A stretch of DNA of 734 nucleotides from Escherichia coli. Its GTDB lineage: Bacteria > Pseudomonadota > Gammaproteobacteria > Enterobacterales > Enterobacteriaceae. The DNA is taken from NCBI RefSeq assembly GCF_003334405.1, contig NZ_QOWM01000054.1; one strand, given 5' to 3'. Under the pieces are notes generated by a model. It was given only the letters and a program-made list of their open reading frames with translations. It was not told the DNA's origin and did no database searches. Below, piece after piece: positions 1 to 734 of this stretch (the first letter of the stretch is position 1; each line of letters starts with the position of its first letter). Made by a program: the position numbers and the translations under genes.

Positions 1-734
1 CTCTCCCGCACCTACAGCAGTTACCGGACAAAAACGCCCGCGCCGGTGGGGAGCCTCGGCCCCGGCTGGAAAATGCCTGCGGATATCCGCTTACAGCTGC
101 GCGATAACACACTGATACTCAGTGATAACGGCGGCAGAAGCCTGTATTTTGAGCACCTGTTTCCCGGTGAGGACGGTTACAGCCGCAGCGAGTCACTGTG
201 GCTGGTGCGCGGCGGCGTGGCGAAACTGGATGAAGGTCACCGGCTGGCCGCACTCTGGCAGGCGCTGCCGGAAGAACTCCGCTTAAGTCCGCATCGTTAT
301 CTGGCGACAAACAGTCCGCAGGGGCCGTGGTGGCTGCTCGGTTGGTGTGAGCGGGTGCCGGAAGCGGATGAGGTGCTGCCTGCGCCGCTGCCGCCGTACC
401 GGGTACTGACCGGGCTGGTGGACCGCTTCGGGCGCACACAGACGTTCCACCGCGAAGCCGCCGGTGAATTCAGCGGCGAAATCACCGGCGTGACGGATGG
501 TGCCTGGCGTCACTTCCGGCTGGTACTGACCACGCAGGCGCAGCGGGCAGAAGAAGCCCGGCAGCAGGCCATTTCCGGCGGGACGGAACCGTCCGCTTTT
601 CCTGATACCCTGCCGGGTTACACCGAATATGGCCGGGACAACGGCATCCGTCTGTCTGCCGTGTGGCTGACGCACGACCCGGAATACCCGGAGAATTTAC
701 CTGCCGCGCCGCTGGTGCGCTATGGCTGGACGCC
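1..734 (+). CDS. Partial CDS (both ends outside the window, or start at ATG 73-75), hypothetical protein of unknown function; Trp/Arg/Pro-rich, probably two regions separated by a linker
   Basis: Seen in sequence: frame 1 is open for all 244 codons (my manual translation found no in-frame TAA/TAG/TGA), while + frame 2 stops at TGA 113-115 and + frame 3 at TAA 105-107. Third-position GC is about 74% against about 62% overall. Codon choice is strongly biased (CTG, CCG, GCG, CGC, GGC), with single rare ATA (115-117) and AGA (136-138). Translation from 73: MPADIRLQLRDNTLILSDNGGRSLYFEHLFPGEDGYSRSESLWLVRGGVAKLDEGHRLAALWQALPEELRLSPHRYLATNSPQGPWWLLGWCERVPEADEVLPAPLPPYRVLTGLVDRFGRTQTFHREAAGEFSGEITGVTDGAWRHFRLVLTTQAQRAEEARQQAISGGTEPSAFPDTLPGYTEYGRDNGIRLSAVWLTHDPEYPENLPAAPLVRYGWT... 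Upstream codons 1-72 (LSRTYSSYRTKTPAPVGSLGPGWK) also have high GC3 in the same frame, so the ORF probably continues upstream. No family assignment is possible without a database search. Confidence 0.8.
414..421 (+). other. Chi octamer (5'-GCTGGTGG-3'), a candidate RecBCD recombination hotspot
   Basis: Seen in sequence: exact GCTGGTGG at 414-421 on the + strand, within codons GGG-CTG-GTG-GAC. The reverse complement CCACCAGC does not occur in the window. Established knowledge: this octamer is the Chi sequence recognised by E. coli-type RecBCD approaching from the 3' side. Function here depends on the host having that Chi specificity, which is plausible given the enterobacterial-like codon usage but unproven. 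Confidence 0.4.
459..490. repeat. Perfect 8-bp inverted repeat (CGCCGGTG ... CACCGGCG) with a 16-nt spacer, a potential intragenic stem-loop
   Basis: Seen in sequence: 459-466 CGCCGGTG and 483-490 CACCGGCG are exact reverse complements; the spacer 467-482 (AATTCAGCGGCGAAAT) contains an EcoRI site GAATTC at 466-471. No U/T-run follows, so it is not an intrinsic terminator. One such 8-bp repeat could arise by chance in GC-rich DNA of this length. Confidence 0.25.

What the first reader, a model, noticed from the sequence alone, without database searches (positions are those of the whole stretch)
414..421. Single + strand Chi site (GCTGGTGG) inside the coding sequence
An exact Chi octamer is present once and only in the + orientation. 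In enteric genomes Chi sites are over-represented and orientation-biased towards the leading strand, so this weakly suggests the + strand here is the leading strand. In horizontally acquired DNA the presence or absence of host-type Chi can affect its survival against RecBCD. One site in 734 bp is not statistically remarkable.
Basis: partly seen in the sequence, partly recalled or inferred. Interest (0 to 1): 0.2.

Follow-up and report, generated by a model that had tools for sequence, protein, structure and literature searches.

The report
Ordinary Chi site in Rhs gene
The exact Chi recombination signal is really there, but it is a routine by-product of common Leu-Val codons inside a multi-copy E. 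coli Rhs toxin gene. It does not show which strand is the leading strand.

Summary
GCTGGTGG occurs once, at 414-421 on the + strand, with no complement, inside an ORF open across the whole window.

The window is codons 74-318 of the E. coli Rhs core ORF. It is 100% identical to both rhsA and rhsB of K-12 MG1655, differs from rhsC at 2 bases, and is found in 3,886 of 5,426 complete E. coli genomes. The host therefore uses this Chi.

The octamer sits in frame G|CTG|GTG|G (Gly-Leu-Val-Asp), the commonest setting for Chi in E. coli. Given the protein and the gene's own codon usage, the expected count is 0.10 per window. The complement cannot be encoded at all, so "+ only" simply marks the coding strand.

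The leading-strand inference fails. rhsA and rhsB lie counter-clockwise of oriC on the + strand, so their Chi is anti-oriented to replication. The rhsC copy is co-oriented.

Chi density in the flanks is about the genome average. The site is not conserved: rhsD and homologous cores of Citrobacter, Pseudocitrobacter and Phytobacter lack it, in two cases through synonymous changes only. Its 3' flank (GCTT at nucleotides 4-7) is of the type reported to weaken RecBCD cutting.

Verdict: real, ordinary, already known.

The parts
414..421 (+). Exact Chi octamer 5'-GCTGGTGG-3'
   Evidence: single exact match, none on the - strand. It corresponds to nt 633-640 of rhsA, rhsB and rhsC of E. coli K-12.
1..734 (+). 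Internal fragment of the Rhs core ORF (frame 1, codons 74-318 of rhsA/rhsB; no start or stop in the window)
   Evidence: open frame. NCBIfam NF041261 RHS_core, profile positions 74-325, E 3.6e-146; 100% identical to MG1655 rhsA and rhsB nt 220-953, 99.7% to rhsC, 76% to rhsD; present in 3,886 of 5,426 complete E. coli genomes, median 3 copies.
412..423 (+). Codons GGG CTG GTG GAC (Gly-Leu-Val-Asp) that carry the octamer in frame G|CTG|GTG|G
   Evidence: CTG is 62% of Leu codons and GTG 67% of Val codons in rhsA. This is the only peptide in the window able to encode Chi. [quoted passage not shown]
422..431 (+). 3' flank of Chi (ACCGCTTCGG); nucleotides 4-7 are GCTT
   Evidence: Taylor et al. 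2016 (PMC5041463) report that A or G at nucleotides 4-7 favours RecBCD cutting and hotspot activity, whereas C at 4-7 and T at 5-7 are disfavoured. Three of the four positions here carry a disfavoured base. That this site is therefore a weak Chi is my inference.
201..208 (+). Chi-like octamer GCTGGTGC (one mismatch; Leu-Val-Arg codons)
   Evidence: It shows that the CTG GTG dicodon recurs in this ORF.
711..718 (+). Chi-like octamer GCTGGTGC (one mismatch; Leu-Val-Arg codons)
42..49 (+). Chi-like octamer GCCGGTGG (one mismatch)

Best explanation
The octamer is an incidental, codon-driven Chi sequence inside the conserved core ORF of an E. coli Rhs (YD-repeat polymorphic toxin) gene of the rhsA/B/C subfamily. 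It exists because the peptide Gly-Leu-Val-Asp is written with the codons GGG CTG GTG GAC, and CTG and GTG are the gene's favoured Leu and Val codons. It is present in every copy because the cores are near-identical repeats. As DNA it should still be a legitimate RecBCD signal. An enzyme that enters a double-strand end on the 3' side of the gene and travels towards the gene's 5' end would meet it in the active orientation, nick a few nucleotides 3' of it, and load RecA on the strand ending there. In rhsA and rhsB that direction of travel is away from oriC, so the site cannot serve the usual repair of a broken replication fork. In rhsC it can. The poor 3' flank suggests below-average activity. 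Shown here: sequence, identity, frame, copy positions, orientation relative to oriC, chance expectation, and lack of conservation. Inferred: RecBCD recognition at this site, and its strength.
For: Exact octamer. Open frame and RHS_core match. 100% identity to rhsA and rhsB of MG1655 and to thousands of E. coli chromosomes. Frame G|CTG|GTG|G at both Chi sites of the core, nt 633 and 2433, which is the majority frame and strand for Chi in E. coli ORFs. Expected counts from the protein plus the gene's own codon usage are 0.10 per window and 0.60 per ORF against 1 and 2 observed, with P(>=2) about 0.10; the complement is not encodable in the window. No conservation: rhsD has GATGGCGG and GCTGGTCG at the two sites. 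Pseudocitrobacter and Citrobacter youngae keep the Gly-Leu-Val-Asp peptide but read TCTGGTGG and GTTGGTGG, and other homologues have Ala or Thr in place of Val. There is only 1 Chi in 30.8 kb of homologous cores, and none in rhsD or rhsE. The copies sit in both orientations relative to replication. Flank density is ordinary.
Against: Two co-oriented Chi sites in a core of about 3.7 kb is roughly three times the codon-based expectation, although P is only about 0.10. Rhs elements were discovered through recA-dependent rhsA x rhsB exchanges (PMC2935791), so a contribution of these sites to such exchanges cannot be excluded by sequence analysis alone.
Confidence: 0.9

Rival explanations
1. The core Chi sites (nt 633 and 2433, both on the coding strand) are selected recombination hotspots. 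RecBCD entering from the variable 3' tip side would be tamed inside the core and load RecA on core homology. This would promote core-to-core exchange: rhsA x rhsB duplications, homogenisation of the cores, or capture of new toxin tips.
For: Both sites have the orientation that is active for an enzyme arriving from the tip side. The count is above the codon-based expectation (2 against 0.60). rhsA, rhsB and rhsC cores are 96-98% identical, and this 734-bp stretch is 100% identical between rhsA and rhsB. The family was named after recA-dependent rhsA x rhsB crossovers (PMC2935791).
Against: The excess is not significant (P about 0.10). The coding-strand orientation is the default for 79% of ORF Chi sites. 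The sites are absent from rhsD and rhsE, and from 10 of 11 homologous cores in other Enterobacteriaceae, twice through purely synonymous change. The 3' flank of the window's site is of the disfavoured type. Only 632 bp of gene lie 5' of the site at nt 633 (core homology upstream of the ORF was not measured). Jackson et al. found no published rhs-mediated chromosomal rearrangement and regard the original phenotype as an artefact of selection.
Confidence: 0.06
2. One reading: the Chi orientation reports the leading strand, so the + strand of the window is the leading strand and the site serves repair of collapsed replication forks.
For: Genome-wide, 75.5% of E. coli Chi sites are co-oriented with replication. 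The rhsC copy is co-oriented.
Against: Both exact copies in K-12 (rhsA, rhsB) are + strand genes on the counter-clockwise replichore, with negative + strand GC skew in the flanks. In the rhsA 50-kb region all five non-Rhs Chi sites are on the - strand, and the only two on the + strand are those inside rhsA. The same sequence therefore occurs in both orientations within one genome.
Confidence: 0.03
3. The Chi marks a horizontally acquired, GC-rich Rhs core as 'self' and so protected it from RecBCD degradation on entry.
For: The Rhs ORF is compositionally atypical, at 59-60% GC (64% in the window) against 50-52% in the flanks.
Against: One or two sites at roughly genome-average density give no special protection. 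Homologous cores in related genera lack them. The self/non-self role of Chi is itself disputed (bioRxiv 10.1101/2021.07.08.451572).
Confidence: 0.01

Closest known systems
Chi (crossover hotspot instigator) sites of the E. coli chromosome, the RecBCD regulatory signal
   Same: The octamer is exact and the host is E. coli. The site is inside an ORF, on the coding strand, in the CTG|GTG frame, which is the commonest situation among the 1008 chromosomal sites.
   Different: In rhsA and rhsB it belongs to the roughly 25% minority that is anti-oriented to replication. Nucleotides 4-7 of its 3' flank (GCTT) are mostly of the disfavoured kind described by Taylor et al. 2016. It is repeated at several loci because it lies in a repeated gene.
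Rhs (rearrangement hot spot) elements, rhsA/B/C(F) subfamily core ORF: YD-repeat polymorphic toxin genes
   Same: The window is 100% identical to rhsA and rhsB and 99.7% to rhsC of K-12. It matches RHS_core NF041261. The full gene has DUF6531, RHS repeats and the RHS-associated core domain, and GC content above the flanks.
   Different: Nothing differs; the window is a plain internal fragment of the known gene. The Chi sites are a peculiarity of the rhsABC-type core, not of the Rhs family: they are absent from rhsD and rhsE and from nearly all homologues in other genera.

Membership tests
E. coli Chi site | Exact sequence 5'-GCTGGTGG-3' | tested here: met
   one exact match at 414-421 on the + strand.
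E. coli Chi site | Resident in a host whose RecBCD recognises this octamer (E. coli and enteric relatives) | tested here: met
   100% identity over 734 bp to E. coli chromosomes, found in 3,886 of 5,426 complete genomes; exact in K-12 rhsA and rhsB. Chi specificity of E. coli: PMC8022716 and PMC5041463.
E. coli Chi site | Orientation co-directional with replication (octamer on the leading strand), as for 75.5% of sites; typical but not obligatory | tested here: not met
   rhsA and rhsB, the exact copies in K-12, are + strand genes counter-clockwise of oriC, with negative flank GC skew. The feature is met only at the rhsC locus. It is a statistical tendency, so failing it does not exclude the site from being a Chi.
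E. coli Chi site | Favourable 3' context (A or G at nucleotides 4-7), needed for full activity | tested here: not met
   Nucleotides 4-7 are GCTT. C at 4-7 and T at 5-7 are disfavoured (PMC5041463).
E. coli Chi site | RecBCD-dependent, orientation-dependent stimulation of recombination, or nicking 4-6 nt 3' of the octamer | not testable with these tools
   This needs a hotspot cross or an in vitro RecBCD cutting assay.
Rhs core protein (NCBIfam NF041261, rhsABC subfamily) | Full-length match to the RHS_core model above its curated cut-off | tested here: met
   K-12 RhsA, which contains the window exactly, scores 2647 bits against a cut-off of 2000. The window alone scores 488.8 bits over profile positions 74-325, below the cut-off only because it is a fragment.
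Rhs core protein (NCBIfam NF041261, rhsABC subfamily) | YD/RHS repeats and the RHS-associated core domain that ends the shell | tested here: met
   at least 10 RHS_repeat hits, YD_repeat_2x, Rhs_assc_core at residues 1170-1247 and the PF03527 RHS domain. All of these lie outside the window, in the full gene.
Rhs core protein (NCBIfam NF041261, rhsABC subfamily) | Sequence subfamily: close to rhsA/B/C and about 22% diverged from rhsD/E | tested here: met
   100%, 100% and 99.7% identity to rhsA, rhsB and rhsC, and 76% to rhsD.

The most novel reading that the evidence does not exclude
The two co-oriented Chi sites of the rhsABC-type core may be maintained because they direct RecBCD, arriving from the variable toxin-tip side, to start RecA-mediated exchange inside the core. 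That would drive core homogenisation, rhsA x rhsB duplications and the swapping of toxin tips.
Probability: 0.05. Interest if true: 0.4.

Novelty: already known. Interest (0 to 1): 0.05.

Why it matters
It matters little as biology. The window is a known gene of a fully catalogued genome, and the Chi is one of about a thousand ordinary sites. The useful point is methodological. A lone Chi inside an ORF reports the coding strand and codon usage, not the direction of replication. In a multi-copy element such as Rhs, the identical sequence sits in both replication orientations, so no strand inference should be drawn from it.

Tried and rejected
1. Other features under or near the site. An Rfam scan of the window at E<=1 gave no hit. 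No promoter-like sites were found, and two terminator-like hairpins at 577-603 lie inside the ORF and are weak. There is one 13-nt inverted repeat and one weak 24-nt direct repeat. None of these relates to the Chi. The - strand ORFs of 62-130 aa are shadows of a GC-rich + strand gene.

2. Enrichment of Chi in the Rhs core. This was rejected: 2 observed against 0.60 expected, P about 0.10; none in rhsD or rhsE; 1 in 30.8 kb of homologous cores from other genera.

3. Conservation of the site. This was rejected from the rhsD alignment and from a degenerate-pattern scan of 100,044 species genomes. The only other sequences with Chi at this site are E. coli-identical short contigs.

4. Literature on Chi within Rhs. 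Three searches found no paper linking the two. Jackson et al. 2009 do not mention Chi or RecBCD. Feulner et al. 1990 is not held in the library.

5. Local GC skew around rhsC is close to zero (+0.005 and -0.003) and so uninformative. The replichore of rhsC was assigned from its map position relative to oriC and the known position of the terminus near 1.6 Mb, which is established knowledge.

Full report
**Observation**

The window contains GCTGGTGG exactly once, at 414-421 on the + strand, and no copy of the complement.

It is not statistically remarkable:
- Dinucleotide-preserving shuffles give a mean of 0.08 sites, and 16 of 200 shuffles have at least one.
- The E. coli genome average of 1008 sites in 4.64 Mb (bioRxiv 10.1101/2021.07.08.451572) corresponds to about 0.16 per 734 bp.

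**What the window is**

The translation matches the NCBIfam equivalog RHS_core (NF041261) at profile positions 74-325, with E 3.6e-146. Megablast against 5,426 complete E. coli genomes finds the window in 3,886 of them, at 11,969 places, with a median of 3 copies per genome. In 3,251 records the best copy is at least 99% identical, and many are 100% identical.

In K-12 MG1655 the identities are:

| Gene | Identity to window | Position |
|---|---|---|
| rhsA | 100% (gene nt 220-953) | record 3,762,402-3,763,135 |
| rhsB | 100% | record 3,619,411-3,620,144 |
| rhsC | 99.7% (2 mismatches) | 0.73 Mb locus |
| rhsD | 76% | 0.52 Mb locus |

The full rhsA product has DUF6531, at least ten RHS repeats, the YD repeat signature and the RHS-associated core domain. 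The window is therefore an internal piece of the well-known Rhs core ORF of the rhsA/B/C subfamily, and the host is E. coli, the organism in which GCTGGTGG was defined as Chi (PMC8022716; PMC5041463).

**Why the octamer is there**

- It is read as G|CTG|GTG|G within the codons GGG CTG GTG GAC, encoding Gly-Leu-Val-Asp (RhsA residues 211-214).
- The rhsA/B/C cores carry a second Chi at gene nt 2433 in the same frame (CCG CTG GTG GAG), and no complement.
- In rhsA, CTG is 62% of Leu codons and GTG is 67% of Val codons.
[quoted passage not shown] This site is the textbook case.
- I resampled synonymous codons for the RhsA protein using the gene's own usage. The expected coding-strand Chi count is 0.10 per window and 0.60 per ORF, with P(>=2) about 0.10.
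- Gly-Leu-Val-Asp is the only peptide in the window able to encode Chi.
- The complement never arose in the window in 5000 trials.

It marks the coding strand.

**Leading-strand inference**

oriC is annotated at 3,925,744-3,925,975 in NC_000913.3.

- rhsA (3.762 Mb) and rhsB (3.619 Mb) are + strand genes lying 163 kb and 306 kb counter-clockwise of oriC. On that replichore the - strand is the leading strand.
- The + strand GC skew of their flanks is negative, at -0.012 and -0.030, as expected.
- The Chi in the two K-12 loci that match the window exactly is therefore anti-oriented to replication.
- rhsC (0.73 Mb, + strand, clockwise replichore) carries the same site co-oriented.
- In strain EJN001 the exact 734-mer sits in that rhsC locus, in the same chiP-fur-seqA-pgm-kdp-ybfA-rhsC-ybfB-phr-nei synteny.

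The same sequence thus occurs in both orientations relative to replication, within a single genome. The inference fails for two of the three K-12 copies, and the orientation of the window itself cannot be known without longer flanks.

| 50-kb region (MG1655) | + strand | - strand | Note |
|---|---|---|---|
| rhsA | 2 | 5 | Both + sites are inside rhsA; all five others are co-oriented with replication |
| rhsB | 6 | 8 | Two + sites are inside rhsB |
| rhsC | 8 | 6 | Two + sites are inside rhsC |
| rhsD | 9 | 8 | None in rhsD |
| rhsE | 4 | 4 | None in rhsE |

The total is 60 sites in 250 kb, or 1 per 4.2 kb, against a genome average of 1 per 4.6 kb. Local density is ordinary.

**Conservation**

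- At the window's site rhsD reads GATGGCGG (Met-Ala). At the second site it reads GCTGGTCG, a synonymous change.
- I scanned one representative genome for each of 100,044 species for the degenerate coding pattern of Pro-Tyr-Arg-Val-Leu-Thr-Gly-x-x-Asp-Arg-Phe-Gly. This returned 13 loci.
- Pseudocitrobacter faecalis and Citrobacter youngae keep Gly-Leu-Val-Asp but read TCTGGTGG and GTTGGTGG. Citrobacter amalonaticus and Phytobacter ursingii have Ala or Thr in place of Val.
- The only two loci with Chi at this site are short contigs that are 100% and 98.6% identical to E. coli rhsA/rhsB over their whole length.
- Over 30.8 kb of homologous cores there is a single Chi, and rhsD and rhsE have none.

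Chi is therefore a peculiarity of the E. coli rhsABC-type core. It is copied along with the repeat, and there is no sign that it is retained by selection.

**How it most likely works**

As DNA in an E. coli cell, the octamer should be recognised by a RecBCD enzyme that entered a double-strand end to its right (PMC5041463). Here that means from the 3' (toxin-tip) side of the gene, travelling towards the gene's 5' end. The enzyme would then nick a few nucleotides 3' of the octamer and load RecA. This step is inferred, not shown.

- In rhsA and rhsB that direction of travel is away from oriC, so the site is of no use for reassembling a collapsed fork. In rhsC it could serve that role.
- Taylor et al. 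2016 showed that A or G at nucleotides 4-7 of the 3' flank strongly raises cutting and hotspot activity, and that C at 4-7 and T at 5-7 lower it.
- The flank here is ACCGCTTCGG, so nucleotides 4-7 are GCTT. I infer a weaker-than-average Chi. The second core site has ACAC at those positions.

**Rivals**

The most interesting alternative is that the two co-oriented core sites help RecBCD-dependent exchange between cores. Rhs elements were named for recA-dependent rhsA x rhsB crossovers selected through glyS duplication (PMC2935791). The orientation would suit an enzyme arriving from the variable tip side.

Several points count against it:
- The excess is not significant.
- The coding-strand orientation is the default for ORF Chi sites.
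- The sites are not conserved in other Rhs cores.
- Only 632 bp of gene lie 5' of the window's site (core homology upstream of the ORF was not measured).
- The flank is poor.
- Jackson et al. regard the "hot spot" phenotype as an artefact of selection.

I give this rival about 0.05-0.06. The idea that Chi serves as a "self" tag for an acquired GC-rich core gets about 0.01. The gene is 59-60% GC against 50-52% in the flanks. However, homologous cores lack Chi, and the concept itself is disputed.

**Other checks**

Rfam, promoter, terminator and repeat scans of the window show nothing connected with the site. Three literature searches found no paper that links Chi and Rhs.

**Verdict**

It is one codon-driven Chi among about a thousand, located in a catalogued, multi-copy E. 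coli gene. Its single inference, that the + strand is the leading strand, is not supported. Interest 0.05.

Noticed in passing
L007 1-553; L019 1-2726; L018 1-2822: Short contigs filed under unrelated taxa are essentially E. coli Rhs DNA. Rheinheimera sp. A13L contig NZ_AFHI01000069.1 is 100% identical to K-12 rhsA/rhsB nt 556-1108. A MAG labelled Oscillospiraceae is 98.6% identical to rhsB, and a MAG labelled Lentisphaerae is 95.6% identical to rhsD. Contamination or mis-binning is the likely cause.
   Followed up: partly
window 1-734 (= NC_000913.3 3762402-3763135 and 3619411-3620144): rhsA and rhsB are 98.4% identical over the 3.8-kb core but 100% identical over this 734-bp stretch, so the window cannot be assigned to one locus. 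This is compatible with gene conversion between the cores, which was not analysed.
   Followed up: no
L001 (NC_000913.3 3739000-3788999): In the 50 kb around rhsA all five Chi sites outside the gene are on the - strand, co-oriented with replication. The only two + strand sites are those inside rhsA. The acquired-looking, GC-rich gene stands out from its surroundings in Chi polarity as well as in composition.
   Followed up: partly
window 42-49, 201-208, 711-718: There are three one-mismatch Chi-like octamers, all on the + strand: GCCGGTGG once and GCTGGTGC twice. The latter two come from Leu-Val-Arg codons. Their activity was not assessed.
   Followed up: no
window 459-490 and 577-603: A 13-nt inverted repeat (92% complementary, 6-nt spacer) and a terminator-like hairpin followed by CGCTTTTCCT both lie inside the ORF. 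The terminator scan found 2 overlapping sites against 0.4 expected. These are probably chance features.
   Followed up: no
L009 approx. 9110 (rhsA nt ~2406-2433 equivalent): Citrobacter youngae, whose core is 70% identical to rhsA, has a single coding-strand Chi near the position of the second E. coli core site. Whether it is the orthologous Pro-Leu-Val-Glu codons was not checked.
   Followed up: no
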